A DNA stretch of 28,156 nt from a virus (taxonomy: Duplodnaviria > Heunggongvirae > Uroviricota > Caudoviricetes), in IMG/VR virus record IMGVR_UViG_2802429240_000006, positions 1 through 28,156 of that record; one strand, written 5' to 3'. This document shows positions 11,260 through 26,000 of the stretch, in pieces. The notes under the pieces are model-generated. The model was not told where the DNA came from. It made no database searches and saw only the letters and a program-made list of their open reading frames with translations. Made by a program: the position numbers and the translations under genes. Each line of letters begins with the position of its first letter. The stretch's first letter is position 1.

Positions 11260-11703
11260 GTGCCTAATCCAATGATCCCCGTTGGCACCCTTAACCGGGT
11301 TCGCGCCAGCGTTAAATTCACCTCTCATTCCGAACTGAATGTGTCCGCCTCATTTCTGGCAAAAGAAGGCGTCGAATTGTCCTTTCAGGGCAATATCACG
11401 GAGTTTTTACCCGCTATGACGGGAGCCGTGCAGTCGCCGCAGCCATACATGATTTTACAGGCGCGTGTTCATCTGTTGCGTAGCCAGGCGCTGGGAAAAC
11501 AATTCAAGGCGCAATGGGAAAAGAATGCCACGATCGGCGACGCAAAAGTGTATAGCGACAGCACGGTATTCGGTGACTTCGATATCTATAACACGGCGAT
11601 CACCAACGTGCAGGATATGACCTTCGCCGGGGGCGAGCCGGGTGTGGCCATCACCATTACCGGTACGTATTACATCAACTCTGAAATGTGGGATCTGGTA
11701 TGA
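11260..11703 (+). CDS. Putative tail tube protein
   Basis: 147 aa between putative sheath and tail chaperone. Confidence 0.45.
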   Translation: MPNPMIPVGTLNRVRASVKFTSHSELNVSASFLAKEGVELSFQGNITEFLPAMTGAVQSPQPYMILQARVHLLRSQALGKQFKAQWEKNATIGDAKVYSDSTVFGDFDIYNTAITNVQDMTFAGGEPGVAITITGTYYINSEMWDLV

Positions 11704-12317
11704 AAATCTCCCGAAATCTGAATCTGATTATTCCTGTCCGGACAGAAAAGGGTAATGGCTGGATCCATGCCACGCCGATCAGCAAAGAGGTGTTTAAAGA
11801 GCATTTCTTCATCCTGAGTAAAACCTTTTCTGCCATTTTTTCTGAAGGTCTTGGCGTCGTTGCGGGTCCGCGTATCGCCTGCCTTATGCTGGAACGGATC
11901 TCCTCAGATATGAACATCTGGGATGGCGAAAAGGGCGTTCGTAATACGCTCGTGAATGAAATCATTCGCCTTGCGAATCTGGTTTACCCAGTCGAAGGGA
12001 AAGGTTATGACACGCTCCCGCTTGATATGGCGCTGGAGCGCGGCATCGTTGAATTTGATGATGTGGCAGGTGAACTCGTTTTTTTTACATGCGTCTCGTC
12101 GATAAACACACCGGAGCAGACGGAGCAGATGATGCTGGCAGTCAGTGGAATGTGGAACAGTCGCACTTCATCCTTGAGTCTTACGGAATGGATTGCTTCA
12201 TTGCCGACATTGAAGCCTGTCGCCAGTTCTGGCGCGACGGCGAGCACGTTATCAGCGACATCCTCGACTACTCAGCCGGAGACGGATTCAGCGACATCTG
12301 GGCAAATTCCGGTCTGA
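11700..12317 (+). CDS. Tail assembly chaperone (zero-frame product)
   Basis: ATG at 11700 overlaps upstream stop; lies between tube and tape measure genes; contains a T8 slippery run with an overlapping -1 frame ORF. Confidence 0.55.
   Translation: MKISRNLNLIIPVRTEKGNGWIHATPISKEVFKEHFFILSKTFSAIFSEGLGVVAGPRIACLMLERISSDMNIWDGEKGVRNTLVNEIIRLANLVYPVEGKGYDTLPLDMALERGIVEFDDVAGELVFFTCVSSINTPEQTEQMMLAVSGMWNSRTSSLSLTEWIASLPTLKPVASSGATASTLSATSSTTQPETDSATSGQIPV
12079..12086 (+). other. Candidate -1 programmed ribosomal frameshift slippery site (T TTT TTT)
   Basis: Eight consecutive T at 12079-12086; zero-frame codons GTT TTT TTT; the -1 frame is open from 12074 to 12391. Confidence 0.5.
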
Positions 12318-12391
12318 ATGTAAAAACAGCAGCTCAGTTTCGTGAGCTGCGTAAATGCACGACGCCGGGAGGTGTATTGAATGTCAGGTAA
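12089..12391 (+). CDS. -1 frame C-terminal extension of the tail chaperone (frameshift product)
   Basis: ORF in -1 frame relative to the chaperone, begins just after the T8 run and ends overlapping the tape measure start at 12381. Confidence 0.5.
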   Translation: MRLVDKHTGADGADDAGSQWNVEQSHFILESYGMDCFIADIEACRQFWRDGEHVISDILDYSAGDGFSDIWANSGLNVKTAAQFRELRKCTTPGGVLNVR

Positions 12392-17024: not shown

Positions 17025-17062
17025 TACCGGTTCATTTCACTTTAAATACTACCCATAAAACG

Positions 17063-17100
17063 AAAACCCCGACTGCTGGCCCAGTCGGGGTTTTCTGTTT
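17063..17100 (+). terminator. Rho-independent terminator (potentially bidirectional)
   Basis: AAAA-CCCCGACTG-ctggcc-CAGTCGGGG-TTTTCTGTTT; 9 bp GC-rich stem, A tract upstream and T tract downstream. Confidence 0.7.
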
Positions 17101-17128
17101 CTGACCTTGAATAAGGCAAGGAGAAGTC

Positions 17129-17266
17129 GTGTTTGATTTTAGCAAACTGATTCGGGAGATTCGAGTTATGGCTGAAAAATTATCCACCTGGAAGTTTTTG
17201 CTTATTTGGTTGGTCTTTCTGATTCTGGCGTCTGGTTATTTTGTTGGCCAGATCCGATGGTGGTGA
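17129..17266 (+). CDS. Small hydrophobic (single transmembrane segment) protein, 45 aa
   Basis: GTG start preceded by AAGGAG at 5 nt spacing; translation VFDFSKLIREIRVMAEKLSTWKFLLIWLVFLILASGYFVGQIRWW; stop 8 nt before the next start; below the size cut-off of the ORF track. Confidence 0.4.
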   Translation: MFDFSKLIREIRVMAEKLSTWKFLLIWLVFLILASGYFVGQIRWW

Positions 17267-17273
17267 GGGCACG

Positions 17274-17621
17274 ATGAGAACATGGGGCCGCGTCACCGAC
17301 GCGAACGGCAACAAAAAATGGGTTGCTGTAGAATCTGATGCCAACGGTGATTTCTCCTACGGCTGGCTGACGACGCTCATTCAGACGTTAAAGCTGGGGT
17401 TGGGGGAGTCGCCGTTTTACGCGAATTACGGTATTCCAGCGCAGCAGTGCATCGTGCAGCAAATTTACCCGGACTACTATGTGAACATGGTTCAGCAACA
17501 GTTTGCCGGGTATTTTGCATCGCTGGCAATTTCAAAGGTAGATGGGGCAGAGAACCCCACCTATAACATCGATGTTGTGTTTTTTAATGGGACCAGTTAC
17601 CGGACGCAGGTTCCGGTTTGA
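17274..17621 (+). CDS. Putative baseplate wedge protein (gp25 / gpW-like)
   Basis: ATG at 17274 (M12 of track ORF 17241..17621) with GGTGAGGG RBS; 115 aa; GESPFYANYG resembles the GxxPFxxxxG motif of T4 gp25. Confidence 0.4.
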   Translation: MRTWGRVTDANGNKKWVAVESDANGDFSYGWLTTLIQTLKLGLGESPFYANYGIPAQQCIVQQIYPDYYVNMVQQQFAGYFASLAISKVDGAENPTYNIDVVFFNGTSYRTQVPV

Positions 17622-18157
17622 GGCAAGTTTTCGGGCATCAGTTGGGCCAGTGGCGTGTTAAGAAGTTCATCGCGTGGCATGACAATCCATCCACTTTTGC
17701 GTAGTAAGTGAATTGCCCATTCTGTGGTTATAACTGAGCCTGATTTATGGTGCTCAATGTGGGTAACCGAGCCGTTTCTGACGCGCATGATGATGTCAAC
17801 ATTCAGAGGGGATTGTGTGCTGGTGGTATCCTCGCGCAGTTTTTTCTCGCACTCGATGAAGTATCGGCGGATCTGGTGGCCTTTTTCGTTGCGCTCAACC
17901 ATCGCCAGCTCTTTGGCGGTGTCCAGGGTTAGGTGGTAGTCTTTAGCTGGTCTGCCTCTACCGATTTTTTCCCGATTTTGGGAAATAATCAAAAAGTCCT
18001 GATTTTCTACGAATTCATACTCGCTGATTCGCTCGGTGATCCATGTAGCAAAGCGTTTACCTACTTCGAGAAAGGCGTGCAGATCGCGAGCATTACAGAG
18101 AAGGATTGTTTCGTTTGAGACAGTTCCGTTGAAAACGGGGATCAGTTGGGTTGTCAT
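17597..18157 (-). CDS. Phage antirepressor (AntA N-terminal domain plus KilA-C-like C-terminal domain)
   Basis: Start at ATG 18155-18157 (M85 of the 270 aa track ORF) with AGAGG RBS; motifs NARDLHAFLEVGKRFATWI and GRGRPAKDYHLTLDTAKELAMV...RRYFIECEK typical of phage antirepressors. Confidence 0.75.
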   Translation of the reverse strand: MTTQLIPVFNGTVSNETILLCNARDLHAFLEVGKRFATWITERISEYEFVENQDFLIISQNREKIGRGRPAKDYHLTLDTAKELAMVERNEKGHQIRRYFIECEKKLREDTTSTQSPLNVDIIMRVRNGSVTHIEHHKSGSVITTEWAIHLLRKSGWIVMPRDELLNTPLAQLMPENLPQTGTCVR

Positions 18158-18430
18158 GATGACCTCTGTTTGTTTTCTTCGAATTACCACTATCTGAGTG
18201 GTGCCAGGAGGTTCGAAACGGCACAAACAAAGCCGCGGACTTATTCCCCTTTCGGGTGTTGTATTCGTCGCCCTCCCGACATTGATCGGGGATGTGACCG
18301 CACATGGTGCCATCACTAAATAGTAGGCATAAAAAATCCAACACTGACGGGGTTGGTTGTGACCGTGTTTGTTGAGGTTTCGACGCCTCATGCGCCCAAT
18401 CATACTCAATTGGGCGCGGTTGTAAAGAGC
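18158..18430 (-). promoter_or_regulatory. Long structured leader / control region upstream of antirepressor, containing a 9 bp perfect inverted repeat
   Basis: GCGCCCAAT-catactca-ATTGGGCGC at 18392-18417; further GC-rich hairpins; no convincing ORF. Confidence 0.4.
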
Positions 18431-18664
18431 TTAGTTAGCAATGAAAATTGAATTAAAGTAGTTACCATCTTTTGAGGCAATCACTTTACCTGAACTACGT
18501 GAAATAATGTTAACTCGCATATTTATTGTTGGGTTTGCGGTATACATCATAAATTTAAGTTTATAATTCCTTTCAAGCATGATTCGTTTGGATGGTGCTT
18601 GCTTATCAAAAAAATTAGTTGGTCCCATATTACCCGTGACTGAAAGGTTACAAGAGCTCGGCAT
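18431..18664 (-). CDS. Hypothetical small protein (77 aa) in AT-rich cassette; coding status doubtful
   Basis: ORF from track; no good RBS before the first ATG, internal ATG at codon 13 has a weak GGG; AT-rich like the lipoprotein gene. Confidence 0.3.
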   Translation of the reverse strand: MPSSCNLSVTGNMGPTNFFDKQAPSKRIMLERNYKLKFMMYTANPTINMRVNIISRSSGKVIASKDGNYFNSIFIAN

Positions 18665-18723
18665 ATATAATTCAAAGCTTCTGCTATCATAGCAAAATAG
18701 TTCGGCTTCATATGGAAAGCGTT

Positions 18724-19155
18724 TTATCGAAGCAGTATTGAATTCTTTTTCATTTTTTTTGATTCTTCCTCTGCTTCCCTTTTAATATCTTCTATTCTCT
18801 TTTGTTGTTCGCGTTCTTCTTTTTCTTTTTGAGCTTTTCTTTCATCTTCAGTCACAAAAACAACATGTACATCATTTGACCATCTGCCAGTTGATTGTAG
18901 ATAACCTTGAGAATATGAGCCATCAGATAATGTAGCGATTGCTGGTCGCTCAGTAAAATCATCTGAACCATAAATCATGCCACCTGTGTAATCAATTCTT
19001 GTGGCTTTAATTGCTCTGTGGCTATTTATAGTATTTAGTATTCTTTCATTTGTGTACCCACTAATTAACAAACCGTCGGCAAGGTTAGTTTGTTGTTCGT
19101 ATGGAACGCAGCCAACTACCGAAAATGAAATCAATAAAGAAATTAACTTTTTCAC
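18724..19155 (-). CDS. Lipoprotein with ER/K-rich charged C-terminal tail (accessory / moron gene)
   Basis: GTG start with AGGG RBS; signal peptide MKKLISLLISFSVVGC with lipobox VVGC, Cys followed by V (not D); C-terminus ERKAQKEKEEREQQKRIEDIKREAEEESKKMKK; strongly AT-rich relative to flanking genes. Confidence 0.65.
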   Translation of the reverse strand: MKKLISLLISFSVVGCVPYEQQTNLADGLLISGYTNERILNTINSHRAIKATRIDYTGGMIYGSDDFTERPAIATLSDGSYSQGYLQSTGRWSNDVHVVFVTEDERKAQKEKEEREQQKRIEDIKREAEEESKKMKKNSILLR

Positions 19156-19176
19156 AACTTACCCTTGAGATTAACT

Positions 19177-20403
19177 ATGTCAGAAATACCAATTACTATG
19201 ACCAGTGCGGGTGCGCAGCCTACGCCACCCAATGATTTGCTTGCGAATCTTATCACCAGAGTTGCTGAAAAAGTACCTGGATATACAGCCAACCTTCCGG
19301 CGGGACTTATTACAGACCTTGCCAGCACGGCAGTCGGGGCGCTGGCATTAATAGACCAGGCGCGGGTTGATCTTATTAACTCCGTAAGCCCATACGGCGC
19401 GAATATTCCGTTACTGATGCAACTCGGAAACATATATGGAGCACAGAAGGGATTAAGTACAAATACGGCTGTATACGTGGTGTTTGAGGCGTTGCCGGGG
19501 TTTGGTATCCCTAAAGGATTTGTGGTTGGAGACGGTAACTACCAGTATGCGGTTTCCCGCGATACGGTGGTGCCGGAAAGTGGGCAGACTGAACCAGTCT
19601 ACTGTGTGGCCACTACGTCAGGCTCATGGGCTGTACCGGAAGGGACCGTGACGCAGGTCATTACATCAGTACCCAAAGACCAGCCTGTAAAATGCACCAA
19701 CCTAACCGCAGGGATGCCAGGTCAGGAGGCGCAAACGTGGGCATCATACCGCGCCGAAGTCATGGAGTCCGGCATGTTTGGTGTGCAGGGAACACCGGAT
19801 TGCTTTAAAGCGATGCTCAAATCAGTAAGCGGTGTGCGAGAAAACCTGATTTCTTTCCGGCAGTCGTCGTTGGGGAAATGGGTTGCGGTTGTTGGTGGCG
19901 GTGATCCGTATGATGTGGCTTATGCGATTTACAAATCTGTACCGGATATTTCGAAACTGACCAACGATGTTAGCAATCCATCCGGTGCGGCAGTGGAAAA
20001 ACGCACGGTTTCAATAACCGTTTCGCCGGACGTTTATCAGGTGCCGTTCGTTATCCCGTCATCACAAAACGTCATGGTGCTAATCACCTGGAACACGGTG
20101 TCTGATGATTATGTTGATCCGGCGGGTATTGCTATGGCTGTGCAGCAAAACGTTGCTGATTACATCAATTCTATTGAAGTCGGTCACCCGATAAATCTGC
20201 TGCGAATCCAGGATATTTTTACCAGCTCCGTAAAATTGCTGGTTGATGCGACGTTGATCTCAACAATCAGTGTGAGCATTGGTATTAACGGCCATATTGT
20301 TCTTCCGGCAAAAGACACAAGCCTGGTTTATGGCGATACCTATTCCTATTTTTCAACGGTGGCATCACAGGTTCAGGTCAACAAGTATGCAATATCTGAC
20401 TGA
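19177..20403 (+). CDS. Putative baseplate protein J-like
   Basis: ATG 19177 (track start TTG 19165); ~408 aa; position before I-like and tail fiber genes. Confidence 0.5.
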   Translation: MSEIPITMTSAGAQPTPPNDLLANLITRVAEKVPGYTANLPAGLITDLASTAVGALALIDQARVDLINSVSPYGANIPLLMQLGNIYGAQKGLSTNTAVYVVFEALPGFGIPKGFVVGDGNYQYAVSRDTVVPESGQTEPVYCVATTSGSWAVPEGTVTQVITSVPKDQPVKCTNLTAGMPGQEAQTWASYRAEVMESGMFGVQGTPDCFKAMLKSVSGVRENLISFRQSSLGKWVAVVGGGDPYDVAYAIYKSVPDISKLTNDVSNPSGAAVEKRTVSITVSPDVYQVPFVIPSSQNVMVLITWNTVSDDYVDPAGIAMAVQQNVADYINSIEVGHPINLLRIQDIFTSSVKLLVDATLISTISVSIGINGHIVLPAKDTSLVYGDTYSYFSTVASQVQVNKYAISD

Positions 20404-23072: not shown

Positions 23073-23095
23073 TTTAATTTATCGCGAGAAAAACT

Positions 23096-26000
23096 ATGTC
23101 TGTAGTGATATCAGGTGCGCTGATAGATGGCGCAGGCATCCCTATGTCCGGATGCCACATAATTCTGAAATCCCGGGTAAACACCTCAGAAGTGGTGATG
23201 CGCACAGTTGCTGACGTGGTGACAGGAAACTGTGGCGAGTACTGTTTTAAGGCGCAGACCGGAAAATATTGCGTATATCTGAAACAGGACTGGCGCGATG
23301 AGTACTGTGTTGGCGACATTGCTGTATACGATGACTCAAAGCCCGGCACGCTGAACGACTTTCTGACTGCCCTTGATGAAGGCGACCTCAAACCCGACGT
23401 GGTGAAACGCTTTGAGGAAATGGTGGCGCAGGCGCAGCAGAGCGCGGAAGCGGCAGCGGAAAGCGAACAACAGGCCGGGAAACATGTTGCTGATGCGCAA
23501 CAAATCAAGAGCGACTGCGAGACGCTGGCGGATAACGTACAGCAGAATGCAGAAGCCGTTGCCGAAGATAAAAAGCAGGTGGCACAGCTGGCATCATCTG
23601 CCACACAGGATGCGGCACGCGCAGAGCAGGCCGTCAAGGATGCCGACCTGATAGTCCAGAAAGCGGTCGATAAACTTGGTGAAGCTGCAACGCTGACCGG
23701 TGAGGCAAAAGCCAGCGCCGAAGCGGCAGCAAAAAGCGAGCAGAGCGCGAAACAGCACAGGGACGAGGCGCAACGGATAGTTGATGACCTGAAGGGAACC
23801 AACGCCAGCACGACGCAAAAAGGCCTGGTGCAACTCTGTAGTGATACAGACAACGACAGCGAAGAACTGGCAGCCACACCAAAAGCCGTCAAAGCCGTCA
23901 TGGACGAGACGAAAACAAAAGCGCCGCTGGACAGCCCGGCGTTCACCGGCACGCCCACCACACCAACCCCGCCGGACGATGCGACCGGGCTGGAGATGGC
24001 GAACGCGGCATTTGTCCGCAAACTGCTCGCCACGCTGGTTGACTCATCACCGGAAGCCCTCGACACGCTGAACGAGCTGGCAGCGGCACTGGGCAATGAC
24101 CCGAACTTTGCGACAACAATCATGAACGCGCTGGCGGGTAAACAACCACTCAGCGACGTGTTAACCGCTATCAGTAATCTGGAAGAGCGGGCAGATAACC
24201 TTCTGTGCTTTAATCAGGACGGGAATGCTTCACTGTCTCCGCTGTCGGAGAAAGCCCGGTCACTGCTGGCACAGGCCACAGTGGAAGCCATGCGCAATGA
24301 GCTTGAGCTGAAAAGCGCAGCGGTAAGGGACATTCAGACAGACATTTACGACAGCACGGAAGGCCGTGTTGCGCTTCCCGGTGCGTATGGTTACGGAATG
24401 ACGGACGCCGGAGCACGTTCAGTTATTGCCAGCGATATGGCGACTGTAGCCAGAACTGCACACAACCTGCACCCGGGACGGTATTACACCTTTTCCACAC
24501 AAACGGAAGAGACGACCGGAATAACAGAAATTATCTGGCTGGATAACAACTGGGGCGACAAAACCAGCCAGACAGCAACAAAGCTGGTTCTGTTTTTTGG
24601 AAAAGACGGACGGATTCTTATGACCGTTCGTGGCGATAATATCTCCGCCCCGGTCACCTGGACGAATCTGACGCCACAACTTGGCAATGCAGCACAGAAG
24701 GATGCGCAGGAGAATATTTACGACCGCACCGAAGGTCGTCTGGCGATTCCCGGCATGTTCGGTTTCGGGAAAATATTTTCCAGTAGCGACAGAACTGAAT
24801 TTAAATCAGGGACTGATTTTCTCAGGTGGGTAAAAACAGCAAAACCCGGTCGTTATACCGTATTTGCGGACACAAATGTGGTGGTACCTGGCATACAGAC
24901 AAACGGTGTTATTGAAATTATCTGGCCACAACCTAAAACCAGCCCGAATGATGAGTATGCCTATAAGATAATTATTTATTACGGTGTTAATGGTCATATT
25001 TATTATAACCGTTGCGCGGTGGCATCAGATGGTGGTTATCTGGTTGGCTGGGAAAACCTGAAGGTTGATGAGGCTTCACTCAGGGCACTGATTGAAGCCC
25101 GCGCACCACTGAAAAGTCCGGCACTGACCGGAACTCCGACAGCACCAACACCGCCGGATGATGCAGCAGGTAATGAAATAGCCAATGCGGAGTTTGTCCG
25201 CAAACTGCTCGCTGCGCTGGTTGACTCATCACCTGAAGCCCTGGACACGCTGAACGAGCTGGCAGCGGCGCTGGGTAATGACCCGAACTTTGCGACAACG
25301 GTCACTAATGCACTGGCAGGTAAACAGCCGCTTAATGACGTGTTAACGGCTGTCAGCCAGATAATACCGGAAGAAAACACGCTGCCTTATTTCAGTGAAG
25401 AGGGCCGGATTTTACTGGCGCAGCTGTCAGAAAAAGCCCGCGCATTACTGGCACTGGACACACCTGAAGCCATGCGCACGGAGCTTGAGCTGAAAGCGGC
25501 TGCGACGATGGAACCCCAGAGCGATATCCGCGACCGTACACCGGGCAGGCTGGCGCTGTCCGGTATGCATGGATTTGGTCAGGCATTTGCCAGCACTGAA
25601 GCCCTGGCGTTTGAGGGACTGTCTGATTTCGTTGAATGGCTGAAGAAAGTCACGCCGGGGCGGTATGCGGTCAGTATTACAGATTCATCACAACTGCTTA
25701 CCGGTACCACGCAATTTAACGGCATTATTGACGTGATGTGGTCCCCGTACGCCAACAGTGAATCTGACACAGTCCGCAAATTTAAAACCCTGATGTGTTA
25801 CAACCAGTATTATCAGGGTGAACACTGCATTCACTATATGCAGTACCGGTACAACGACAGCGATAACAGCTGGAACATGTCATCGCGGGTAGTTGTCTAC
25901 GACGGAGATTCACTGGCGTACCTGTTGTCCAGGATGGCGGGCTCAGGCTCATATTTCAAATACCCGGCAGTGGGTGTTCCGGTGCTGGCTGTTTATCGCG

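What the first reader, a model, noticed from the sequence alone, without database searches (positions are those of the whole stretch)
18724..19155. AT-rich lipoprotein with a long charged ER/K tail: candidate superinfection-exclusion or receptor-masking factor
The 143 aa product has a textbook lipoprotein signal peptide (MKKLISLLISFSVVGC, lipobox VVGC). The residue after the Cys is V rather than D, which by the classical sorting rule predicts outer-membrane localisation. The mature protein ends in a ~40 residue E/R/K-rich segment that looks like a single charged helix. Phage-encoded lipoproteins such as Cor (phi80/N15) and Llp (T5) block re-infection by masking outer-membrane receptors, but this protein is larger and I recognise no similarity to them, so the function is open.
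Basis: partly seen in the sequence, partly recalled or inferred. Interest (0 to 1): 0.65.

Follow-up and report, generated by a model that had tools for sequence, protein, structure and literature searches.

The report
Frameshifted two-domain prophage lipoprotein gene
The 143-residue "lipoprotein with a charged tail" is the front 60% of a rare, uncharacterised 241-residue two-domain prophage lipoprotein whose gene is broken here by a one-base loss at a run of A's, so the "tail" is really a spacer helix between two domains.

Summary
The ORF 18724..19155 (minus strand, GTG start, 143 aa, lipobox VVGC, 34% GC) is real. It is not a complete gene. Restoring one base at the A-run 18753-18760 gives a 241-aa protein that is identical to a protein found in other Escherichia assemblies. 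The ER/K segment is therefore a roughly 38-residue helical spacer between an N-terminal alpha/beta domain and a C-terminal beta-sandwich. Both domains are under purifying selection.

The family is very small: 9 representatives among 1.84 billion proteins, all Enterobacterales. It matches no Pfam, PHROG, NCBIfam or PADLOC model and has no convincing fold match. Cor and Llp align with it only over the signal peptide. The gene always sits on the opposite strand, 21 nt from the baseplate J start, in Rac-SA53-like contractile-tail prophages. Related prophages carry other AT-rich exported proteins in the same slot.

Near-identical alleles differ at the A-run (in frame, -1, +1, +3) on three sequence backgrounds. 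The run is a mutational hot spot, and the window carries an OFF allele. Function is untested. My best guess, at low confidence, is an outer-membrane-anchored periplasmic factor in phage exclusion. One point against own-receptor masking is that fibre-tip type does not co-vary with the gene.

The parts
18431..19155 (-). Whole lipoprotein gene as it stands in the window: a 241-codon gene interrupted by a 1-nt deletion (OFF allele)
   Evidence: Adding one base gives 241 aa, identical to P0016 and 239/241 identical to P0001. Intact 241-242 aa genes occupy the same slot in L002-L005.
18724..19155 (-).
   Evidence: The exact 143-aa product is found on 7 contigs of public assemblies.
19108..19155 (-). 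Signal peptide with lipobox V-V-G-C (Cys16 codon 19108-19110); Val at +2, Pro at +3
   Evidence: G15-C16 is invariant in the 10-sequence alignment.
19162..19166 (-). Ribosome-binding site AAGGG, 6 nt before the GTG. It lies inside the 21-nt gap to the divergent baseplate J start (ATG at 19177)
   Evidence: CAAGG(A/G)TAA-N-TT-(A/G)TG is conserved in the Escherichia and Erwinia loci.
18850..19086 (-). N-terminal alpha/beta domain (residues ~24-102: two short helices plus a 4-stranded antiparallel sheet)
   Evidence: AF2 model md75045095689, pLDDT 74-94. dN/dS 0.10-0.30.
18734..18849 (-). Spacer helix (residues 103-140), ER/K-rich, containing the frameshift site
   Evidence: One continuous helix, pLDDT 91-94. 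72% charged with 14 i/i+4 opposite-charge pairs. Spacer length is 32-39 aa in all members but its sequence is not conserved, with dN/dS 0.35-0.5 or more.
18753..18760 (-). A8 homopolymer (T8 on the + strand) at the frameshift. The window reads TC-A8-TG, in-frame alleles read TCC-A8-TG or TC-A9-TG
   Evidence: Protein-level variants at -1, +1 and +3.
18434..18733 (-). C-terminal beta-sandwich domain (residues 142-241 of the intact protein). It is out of frame in the window but free of stops and substitutions; stop TAA at 18431-18433
   Evidence: The Cys155/Cys169 pair is conserved. dN/dS 0.22-0.26.

Best explanation
The feature is an OFF (frameshifted) allele of a 241-aa prophage cargo gene that encodes a two-domain lipoprotein.

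Shown here. The precursor has a conserved Lgt/LspA-type lipobox. It is followed by a small alpha/beta domain, a ~38-residue rigid helical spacer and a beta-sandwich domain with a conserved Cys pair. Both domains are under purifying selection. The gene occupies a fixed slot in Rac-SA53-like myoviral prophages of Escherichia, Salmonella, Erwinia and Enterobacter: opposite strand, 21 nt from the baseplate J start. In the window one base is missing at an A-run, so translation ends after 133 native residues and the C-domain is lost. The A-run is a mutational hot spot. Near-identical alleles carry in-frame, -1, +1 and +3 versions on three different sequence backgrounds.

Inferred. After lipidation the protein is sorted to the inner leaflet of the outer membrane, because there is no Asp at +2. 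The ~5-6 nm helix holds the C-domain away from the membrane-proximal N-domain, towards the peptidoglycan layer. The full-length protein most likely acts in the envelope to interfere with entry of competing or related phages. That is superinfection exclusion in the broad sense, and more probably at a periplasmic step than by masking the phage's own fibre receptor. The window's allele is probably inactive or weakened, apart from a small fraction of full-length product that RNA-polymerase slippage on A8 might restore.

My confidence by layer is about 0.95 for a truncated allele of a two-domain lipoprotein, about 0.8 for a hypermutable tract, and about 0.3 for an exclusion function.
For: Truncation. 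Homologues are 241-260 aa. A one-base repair gives a protein identical to P0016. The DNA alignment shows a single missing base and only 2 other differences in 726 nt against L002.

Real allele rather than a read error. The same 143-aa product occurs on 7 contigs from at least 4 assemblies. These prophages sit at different chromosomal sites and their flanks are 2.7% diverged.

Hot spot. In-frame forms are P0016, P0017, P0021, P0001 (in frame) and P0024 (+3). The -1 forms are P0013, P0020 and P0022. The +1 forms are P0023 and P0026. These fall on the G59/Q117, D59 and R117 backgrounds. An in-frame TC-A9 allele is seen in L014. No truncation near this site was seen among alleles that lack the run, apart from fragments from two error-rich assemblies; one run-less Salmonella allele (P0019) is disrupted elsewhere.

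Lipoprotein.

Architecture. The AF2 model built with 10 sequences has pLDDT 85.8.

Selection. dN/dS is 0.1-0.3 in both domains.

Conserved slot. L002-L005, L009, L016 and L017 all show it.

Conflict-type evolution. The lipoprotein is 36% identical between the Escherichia and Erwinia phages, while the neighbouring baseplate proteins are 47-84% identical. The slot holds alternative AT-rich exported proteins in E. coli W/LY180 and Rac-SA53.

Precedent. Lipoprotein genes inside structural modules of mEp phages exclude superinfecting phages (PMC11893012).

Slippage. Runs of 8-9 A are slippage-prone in transcription and replication (PMC1088944; PMC4256274).

Against: Fibre-tip type does not co-vary with presence of the gene. 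L019, which carries the lipoprotein, and E. coli W, which carries different cargo, have fibre tips 94% identical, whereas L018 and L019 both carry the lipoprotein and are only 71% identical.

No sigma70-like promoter was found within 445 nt upstream and no intrinsic terminator downstream. Expression from the prophage is therefore unproven.

Frequent OFF alleles, plus a Salmonella form with a disrupted N-terminus (P0019), fit dispensable, decaying cargo as well as they fit switching.

The missing base could formally be the C of TCC rather than an A.
Confidence: 0.55

Rival explanations
1. Adaptive contingency locus. The A-run is a maintained on/off switch (phase variation) that lets lysogen populations hedge between expressing and not expressing the lipoprotein.
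For: ON, -1, +1 and +3 tract states occur on three allelic backgrounds within a cassette that otherwise differs by 3 nt or fewer. The +3 in-frame variant suggests repeated slippage. About 16 of 36 listed contigs carrying the tract allele are OFF. The Erwinia-type clade has a different A8 run at YCYNKKNF, and one of three loci there has A9 and is truncated.
Against: Sibling alleles (SNKREKEF, SNKRAKEF, SNKQKKEF) lack the run entirely and are intact, so the tract is not a conserved family feature. A-runs are expected in a 34% GC, Lys-rich gene. No switching rates have been measured. Counts are of contigs, not independent lineages, and only 15 of the 36 cluster members were listed.
Confidence: 0.25
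2. Plain gene decay. The lipoprotein is dispensable cargo being lost, and the A-run is simply where it breaks first.
For: OFF alleles are common. Another disrupted form, P0019, retains only the C-terminal 141 aa in 6 Salmonella contigs. The slot has been overwritten by other cargo in related prophages. The gene is absent from all 5,426 complete RefSeq E. coli genomes.
Against: Both domains show purifying selection over long divergence. The OFF allele's C-terminal 100 codons carry no further damage. The slot and spacing are conserved from Escherichia to Erwinia.
Confidence: 0.3
3. The 143-aa protein, an N-domain plus a free ER/K helix, is itself the functional product and masks an outer-membrane receptor as Cor and Llp do.
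For: The exact 143-aa product recurs in several assemblies. The signal peptide, lipobox and N-domain are intact.
Against: Every in-frame family member keeps the C-domain under dN/dS of about 0.25. The last 10 residues are out-of-frame junk. There is no similarity to Cor or Llp beyond the signal peptide. Fibre tips do not co-vary with the gene.
Confidence: 0.07
4. Two products from one gene by transcriptional slippage. RNA polymerase slips on the A-run so that both truncated and full-length proteins are made and both are needed, as for tssM of Citrobacter rodentium.
For: A8/A9 runs are slippage-prone (PMC1088944). tssM uses an A11 run this way (PMC4256274). The downstream frame is fully open in the OFF allele.
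Against: The window has only A8, where slippage is usually a few per cent. Most family members have no run at this site. In-frame and out-of-frame alleles coexist, which argues against a fixed recoding design.
Confidence: 0.08
5. Host-benefit factor unrelated to phages, for example serum resistance or adhesion (as for Bor, TraT, Lom), or an orphan periplasmic immunity or inhibitor protein against a bacteriocin, T6SS effector or lysozyme.
Against: No Pfam hit of any kind for any of the 10 members. The fold similarity is below usual significance. The gene stays tied to one phage lineage and one slot rather than spreading among other elements.
Confidence: 0.2
6. Sequencing or assembly error at a homopolymer, with the gene intact in the organism.
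For: The break is at a homopolymer. Two other assemblies (L007, L008) show fragments of this gene only because every phage gene there is broken.
Against: All other genes in the window are intact. The identical OFF allele occurs in at least 4 independent assemblies, in prophages at different sites and with diverged flanks.
Confidence: 0.04

Closest known systems
Cor (phages N15, phi80, HK022) outer-membrane lipoprotein, FhuA-dependent superinfection exclusion
   Same: It is a phage-encoded lipoprotein precursor encoded inside the tail gene region. It has a lipobox and no Asp at +2.
   Different: Cor is 78 aa with a single small domain and lies on the same strand next to the tip-fibre gene. hhalign against the family profile aligns only the signal peptide, with probability 16%. 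The protein here is 241 aa, has two domains plus a spacer, and is on the opposite strand.
Llp (phage T5) lytic-conversion lipoprotein that blocks FhuA
   Same: It is a phage lipoprotein that protects against reinfection, and the n-region (MKKL...) is similar.
   Different: Llp is 77 aa. hhalign aligns residues 1-20 only. tblastn of P0001 against 50,697 phage records finds nothing.
Lpp021 / Lpp010 lipoproteins of mEpimmI coliphages (PMC11893012)
   Same: These are lipoprotein genes located within the structural gene cluster of temperate coliphages, and exclusion has been shown experimentally. They are the best functional precedent.
   Different: No sequence match to P0001 was found in the phage collection. 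Their exclusion tracks the receptor used, whereas here the fibre tips do not co-vary with the gene.
T4 Spackle (Sp) and P1 Sim: periplasmic proteins that block a post-adsorption entry step
   Same: They are a possible mechanistic analogue. An exported protein acts in the periplasm against the incoming tail tip or lysin. This phage's tape-measure protein carries an SLT lytic transglycosylase domain.
   Different: This is recalled from the literature and not tested here. They are not lipoproteins, and no homology was detected in any library.
ER/K single alpha-helix (SAH) spacers
   Same: The Escherichia/Salmonella linker is 72% E/K/R/D, has 14 i/i+4 opposite-charge pairs and 10% hydrophobic residues, and is predicted as one helix.
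   Different: It is an internal spacer in an exported bacterial lipoprotein, not a tail. Distant homologues keep the length but are only 38-51% charged.
Poly-A tract frameshifting in C. rodentium tssM (PMC4256274), and slippage-prone A/T runs in bacteria (PMC1088944)
   Same: A run of A's at the point where the reading frame breaks, with the downstream frame fully open.
   Different: tssM has A11 with demonstrated transcriptional slippage. Here the run is A8 and is polymorphic at the DNA level among strains. No RNA data are available.

Membership tests
Bacterial lipoprotein precursor (Lgt/LspA/Lnt substrate) | Positively charged n-region, hydrophobic h-region, lipobox [LVI][ASTVI][GAS]-C | tested here: met
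   The sequence is MKKLISLLISFSVVGC. The PROSITE-style pattern matches 9 of 11 family sequences, and G-C is invariant.
Bacterial lipoprotein precursor (Lgt/LspA/Lnt substrate) | Actual cleavage by LspA and acylation of Cys16 | not testable with these tools
   This needs globomycin sensitivity or palmitate labelling.
Outer-membrane-sorted lipoprotein (Lol pathway, +2 rule) | No Asp at +2 of the mature protein | tested here: met
   The +2 residue is V, I, A or T in all members. Localisation itself is an inference.
Cor family (N15/phi80) | Sequence similarity of the mature protein | tested here: not met
   hhalign probability is 16% and covers only the signal peptide. No PHROG match. No tblastn match in phage genomes.
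Cor family (N15/phi80) | Small single-domain mature protein (~60 aa) encoded next to the tip-fibre gene on the same strand | tested here: not met
   N15 Cor is 78 aa on the + strand after gp21-23. The protein here is 241 aa on the opposite strand beside baseplate J.
Llp (T5) | Sequence similarity of the mature protein | tested here: not met
   hhalign aligns residues 1-20 only.
Superinfection-exclusion factor (functional class) | Reduces plating, adsorption or DNA entry of the cognate phage | not testable with these tools
   The indirect proxy was negative: fibre-tip type does not co-vary with the gene.
ER/K single alpha-helix | High E/K/R content with i/i+4 charge pairing, low hydrophobicity, predicted continuous helix | tested here: met
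   72% charged, 14 i/i+4 pairs, helix 103-140 at pLDDT 91-94. This holds only in the Escherichia/Salmonella clade.
ER/K single alpha-helix | Stable as a monomeric helix in solution (not a coiled coil) | not testable with these tools
   This needs CD, SAXS or analytical ultracentrifugation.
Moron (independent transcription unit inserted in a phage operon) | Deviant base composition and orientation relative to flanking genes | tested here: met
   34% GC against 50%. The gene is on the opposite strand between + strand baseplate genes.
Moron (independent transcription unit inserted in a phage operon) | Own promoter and terminator | tested here: inconclusive
   No sigma70-like site lies within 445 nt upstream, either in the tool scan or in my relaxed scan, and there is no intrinsic terminator. 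The upstream DNA is baseplate J coding sequence.
Simple-sequence contingency (phase-variable) locus | Homopolymer inside the ORF with length polymorphism giving ON and OFF alleles among close relatives | tested here: met
   Tract states seen are TCC-A8, TC-A9, TC-A8, +1 and +3, on three backgrounds.
Simple-sequence contingency (phase-variable) locus | Tract conserved by selection; high reversible switching rate | tested here: inconclusive
   The tract is absent from sibling alleles. A different A8/A9 tract exists in the Erwinia clade. Switching rates are not measurable here.
Unimolecular spanin | N-terminal lipobox plus C-terminal transmembrane helix | tested here: not met
   The C-terminus...KDGNYFNSIFIAN, is part of a beta-sandwich with no hydrophobic helix. 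Where a lysis cassette is seen it is separate from this gene (L005).

The most novel reading that the evidence does not exclude
A new family of prophage-encoded envelope proteins. Each is an outer-membrane-anchored 'ruler' lipoprotein whose rigid ~6-nm helix places a beta-sandwich domain at a set depth in the periplasm, where it blocks tail-tip penetration or DNA entry by related contractile-tail phages. Its expression is switched on and off by slippage at a poly-A tract. That would be a rare example of simple-sequence phase variation of a phage-exclusion gene in Escherichia and Salmonella.
Probability: 0.1. Interest if true: 0.7.

Novelty: new variant of a known kind. Interest (0 to 1): 0.4.

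Why it matters
Prophage cargo that acts at the cell envelope shapes which phages can infect a strain, yet only a handful of such proteins (Cor, Llp, SieA, Imm/Sp, Sim) are understood. This family belongs to no described protein family and gives no convincing fold match. It is tied to one slot of one prophage lineage across several enterobacterial genera. Its architecture of two domains separated by a fixed-length helix suggests that distance from the outer membrane matters for its action.

The recurrent on/off alleles at an A-run give a natural experiment, because isogenic ON and OFF lysogens already exist in public strain collections. There is also a practical lesson: the annotated 143-aa protein in several assemblies is a truncation product and should not be modelled as a complete protein.

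Tried and rejected
- **Near-identical DNA.** Megablast of 18400-19200 found no match in 50,697 phage records. In 5,426 complete E. coli genomes it found only the 65-nt baseplate J edge.
- **Family libraries.** Pfam (the 143-aa ORF, then all 10 members), PHROGs, PADLOC, NCBIfam and a PDB sequence profile all returned no family.
- **Structure from 3 sequences.** pLDDT was 50 and the model was unusable. It was redone with 10 sequences.
- **Recurrent frameshift evidence from P0004 and P0005.** Rejected, because those assemblies have every phage gene fragmented.
- **Pure 'A-run lost an A' reading.** This had to be qualified. Against L002 the missing base aligns to a C of TCC. The in-frame TC-A9 allele in L014 makes loss of an A equally plausible.
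- **Pattern scan for tract variants.** IMG/VR gave none. The metagenome scan gave one contig.
- **Genome-collection scan with P0001.** It found nothing. The scan with the distant sub-alignment found one locus, in Erwinia.
- **Own-receptor masking.** Tested through co-variation with the fibre tip, and the result was negative.
- **Promoter search upstream of the gene.** Nothing convincing was found.
- **Spanin reading.** Rejected because there is no C-terminal transmembrane helix.

Full report
**1. The observation**

It has a GTG start and encodes 143 aa beginning MKKLISLLISFSVVGC. An AAGGG ribosome-binding site lies 6 nt upstream. The stretch is 34% GC in a 50% GC window. The last ~40 residues are E/R/K-rich.

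The ORF is not a whole gene. The database search returned 241-242 aa proteins that cover 96% of the query and continue for another 100 residues. On the coding strand the window reads ...GAA TC AAAAAAAA TG... at 18753-18760. Adding one base there gives a 241-aa protein that is 239/241 identical to P0001 and identical to P0016.

The downstream 100 codons are intact in the other frame as far as the TAA at 18431-18433. The small ORFs 18431..18664 and 18547..18711 overlap this region; the first is in the frame of those codons and encodes their last 77 residues. The real feature is therefore 18431..19155, and the 'long charged tail' is an internal segment.

**2. Is the frameshift real?**

The window is 100% identical to contig JABWNS020000001.1 of GCA_013369115.2. 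All other phage genes in the window are intact. The exact 143-aa product is on 7 contigs. The three further loci retrieved (L019, L020, L021) come from other assemblies, and at least two prophages lie at different chromosomal sites: rsmF/pphA for the window and ompN/uspF for L019. Two of them (L019, L020; seen as L012, L013) have flanks 2.7% diverged from the window, yet their cassettes differ by 1 nt or less.

Two other fragmentary homologues, P0004 and P0005, come from assemblies in which every phage gene is broken. I discarded them as evidence. A simple sequencing error is therefore unlikely.

**3. The tract is a hot spot**

- **DNA level.** L002 and L003 read TCC-A8 (in frame). L014 reads TC-A9 (in frame). 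The window and L011-L013, L019-L021 read TC-A8 (-1).
- **Protein level.**
  - In-frame SKKNEKEF forms: P0016, P0017 (G59D), P0021 (Q117R) and P0001.
  - The +3 form SKKKNEKEF: P0024.
  - The -1 forms ending SKKMKKNSILLR*: P0013, P0022 (G59D) and P0020 (Q117R).
  - The +1 forms ending SKKK*: P0023 and P0026 (G59D).
- **Independent events.** Each of three backgrounds has both ON and OFF versions. Without intragenic recombination this needs about six independent indels, in a cassette that otherwise differs by 3 substitutions or fewer.
- **Alleles without the run.** Sibling alleles lacking the run (SNKREKEF, SNKRAKEF, SNKQKKEF) show no truncation near this site, apart from the two error-rich assemblies set aside above.
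- **Counts.** Among the listed contigs that carry the run, about 20 are in frame and 16 are out of frame. These are contigs rather than lineages, and only 15 of 36 cluster members were listed.
- **A second tract.** The Erwinia-type homologue has a different A8 run, at YCYNKKNF. One of three loci (L017) has A9 there and stops at residue 167.
- **Literature.** Runs of 8-9 A are known to be slippage-prone in both replication and transcription (PMC1088944). A poly-A run rescues a truncated tssM by transcriptional slippage (PMC4256274).

Whether this is an adaptive switch or simply the place where a dispensable gene breaks cannot be decided here. A Salmonella form with a damaged N-terminus (P0019) shows that decay also happens elsewhere in the gene.

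**4. The protein**

- **Family size.** A profile search of 1.84 billion representatives found only 9 proteins, 241-260 aa, 26-37% identical and all with the same architecture. Named sources are Escherichia, Salmonella, Enterobacter ludwigii, an 'Enterobacteriaceae bacterium' and Erwinia sp. OLFS4.
- **Lipobox.** The lipobox Gly-Cys is invariant, and the +2 residue is never Asp.
- **Cysteines.** A Cys pair (C155/C169) is invariant, and most distant members have a second pair in the N-domain. This fits an oxidising, extracytoplasmic location (inference).
- **Structure.** AlphaFold2 with the 10-sequence alignment gives pLDDT 85.8. It predicts a small alpha/beta domain (residues ~24-102), one continuous helix (103-140) and a beta-sandwich (149-240).
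- **Spacer.** It is 32-39 residues long in every member, but its sequence is free (dN/dS 0.35-0.5 and higher). It is 72% charged only in the Escherichia/Salmonella clade.
- **Selection.** Both globular domains are under purifying selection, with dN/dS 0.1-0.3. The two-domain protein is therefore the selected form, and the window's product lacks a constrained domain.

**5. Context**

The window is the late region of a Rac-SA53-like contractile-tail prophage. It is 94% identical to KU052037 over the baseplate genes. The lipoprotein gene lies on the opposite strand, between the 115-aa baseplate gene and the AntA gene on one side and baseplate J on the other.

Its start codon is 21 nt from the J start codon. 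That spacing and the ribosome-binding site are conserved from the Escherichia to the Erwinia phages. The Erwinia-type phages (L009, L016, L017) have only the lipoprotein in the slot. Between the two phage types the lipoprotein is 36% identical, while the neighbouring baseplate proteins are 47-84% identical.

Related E. coli prophages carry different exported proteins in the same slot:
- a 179-aa protein in E. coli W/LY180 that shares the first nine residues, MKKLISLLI;
- rac61 and rac62 in Rac-SA53.

All of these are 31-37% GC. The slot is therefore a cargo site for AT-rich exported proteins, and the lipoprotein looks like its oldest occupant.

I found no sigma70-like promoter within 445 nt upstream, which is baseplate J coding sequence, and no intrinsic terminator downstream. 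Expression in the lysogen is therefore assumed, not shown.

**6. Mechanism**

These steps are inferred, not shown. After lipidation the protein is sorted to the periplasmic face of the outer membrane. The N-domain sits near the membrane, and the ~5-6 nm helix holds the C-domain deeper in the periplasm.

The best functional guess is interference with phage entry. Four observations point that way:
- lipoprotein genes inside structural modules of temperate coliphages do this (PMC11893012);
- the slot's contents turn over;
- the protein evolves faster than its neighbours;
- the gene stays tied to one phage lineage.

Against masking of the phage's own receptor, fibre-tip type does not follow the gene. 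L019 (lipoprotein) and E. coli W (other cargo) have fibre tips 94% identical, whereas L018 and L019 (both lipoprotein) are 71% identical. A periplasmic step, such as the tail tip or the SLT-bearing tape measure, or a non-phage role (serum resistance, inhibitor or immunity protein) remains open. I put the exclusion function at about 0.3.

**7. Comparison with known systems**

Cor (N15) and Llp (T5) align with the family profile only over the signal peptide. They are a third of the size and lie on the same strand as the fibre genes, so this protein is not a member of either family. It is not a spanin, because it has no C-terminal membrane helix. It resembles ER/K single-helix spacers in one clade only.

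**8. Verdict**

What is there is a rare, uncharacterised, two-domain prophage lipoprotein family in a conserved cargo slot, carried here as an OFF allele produced at a hypermutable A-run. It is a new family within a familiar kind of phage cargo. Interest is moderate, and would be higher if the tract proves to be a true switch or the spacer a true ruler.

Noticed in passing
window 18195-18280 (-): Full-length Rfam match to sRNA-Xcc1 (RF02221): 70.9 bits against a gathering score of 53, E 2.7e-12. It lies in the ~240-nt leader between the lipoprotein stop and the AntA antirepressor start at 18157. It may be a cis-element or small RNA associated with ant genes.
   Followed up: no
window 18392-18426 (-): This is the only sigma70-like site in 17100-19600: TTTACA-16-TATGAT, 10 of 12 matches, at 18426..18399. 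It overlaps a perfect 10-bp palindrome, GCGCCCAATT...GATTGGGCGC, whose hairpin is -19 kcal/mol (z -3.1). It looks like a promoter with an operator for the ant transcription unit, not a terminator, because no T-run follows.
   Followed up: partly
window 12079-12086 (+), inside ORF 11688..12317: A T8 run forms a T TTT TTT slippery heptamer in the gene between the tail tube and the SLT tape-measure gene. The -1 frame stays open for about 105 codons and ends just past the tape-measure start at 12381. This is the layout of a programmed -1 frameshift in a tail assembly chaperone, as in G/GT.
   Followed up: partly
window 17597-19176; L001 4066-5020; L010 17226-19094; L004 3605-5194: The slot between the 115-aa baseplate gene and baseplate J is a cargo hot spot on the opposite strand. 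It holds ant plus alternative AT-rich signal-peptide proteins, and in L004 also a YafO-type toxin gene. The E. coli W cargo shares its first ~20 nt (MKKLISLLI) with the lipoprotein, so one exchange junction lies inside the signal-peptide coding region.
   Followed up: partly
L017 2276-3017 (IMG/VR UViG_2917413769_000001) versus L016 7974-8717 (Erwinia sp. OLFS4): The Erwinia-type homologue has its own A-run at a different site, AAC-A8-TTTT in YCYNKKNF. L017 has A9 there and is truncated at residue 167.
   Followed up: yes
PP818812.1 (L015): 'Actinobacillus phage vB_Apl-pPE4' is 94% identical at the DNA level to this Escherichia Rac-like prophage over the baseplate region. The stated host looks doubtful.
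   Followed up: no
window 18431-19155; L016 7974-8717: The lipoprotein gene is 34-36% GC (GC3 25-27%) in both the Escherichia and Erwinia phages, although synonymous sites between them are saturated (dS > 2). The AT-richness is therefore maintained rather than a fading trace of recent import. One possibility is xenogeneic silencing or regulation.
   Followed up: partly
window 17129-17266 (+): A 45-aa ORF with a hydrophobic C-terminal half (...WKFLLIWLVFLILASGYFVGQIRWW) lies between the baseplate V-like gene and the 115-aa gene. An ORF of the same length is annotated as rac58 at the corresponding position in Rac-SA53. It could be a small membrane protein inside the baseplate module.
   Followed up: no
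window 17054-17103: A 22-nt inverted repeat, 86% complementary, with A-rich and T-rich flanks lies just after the baseplate V-like gene. It looks like a bidirectional terminator.
   Followed up: no
cluster of P0001 (protein P0019): Six Salmonella contigs carry only a 141-aa C-terminal product starting at V101. This implies a separate disruption in the N-terminal half of the gene in that lineage.
   Followed up: no
window 23074-24123 (-) and 23501-24000: A 349-aa antisense ORF lies inside the 1047-aa side-tail-fibre gene. It coincides with a strong AT skew (0.515) and 59% GC. It is probably a by-product of a repetitive fibre shaft sequence.
   Followed up: no
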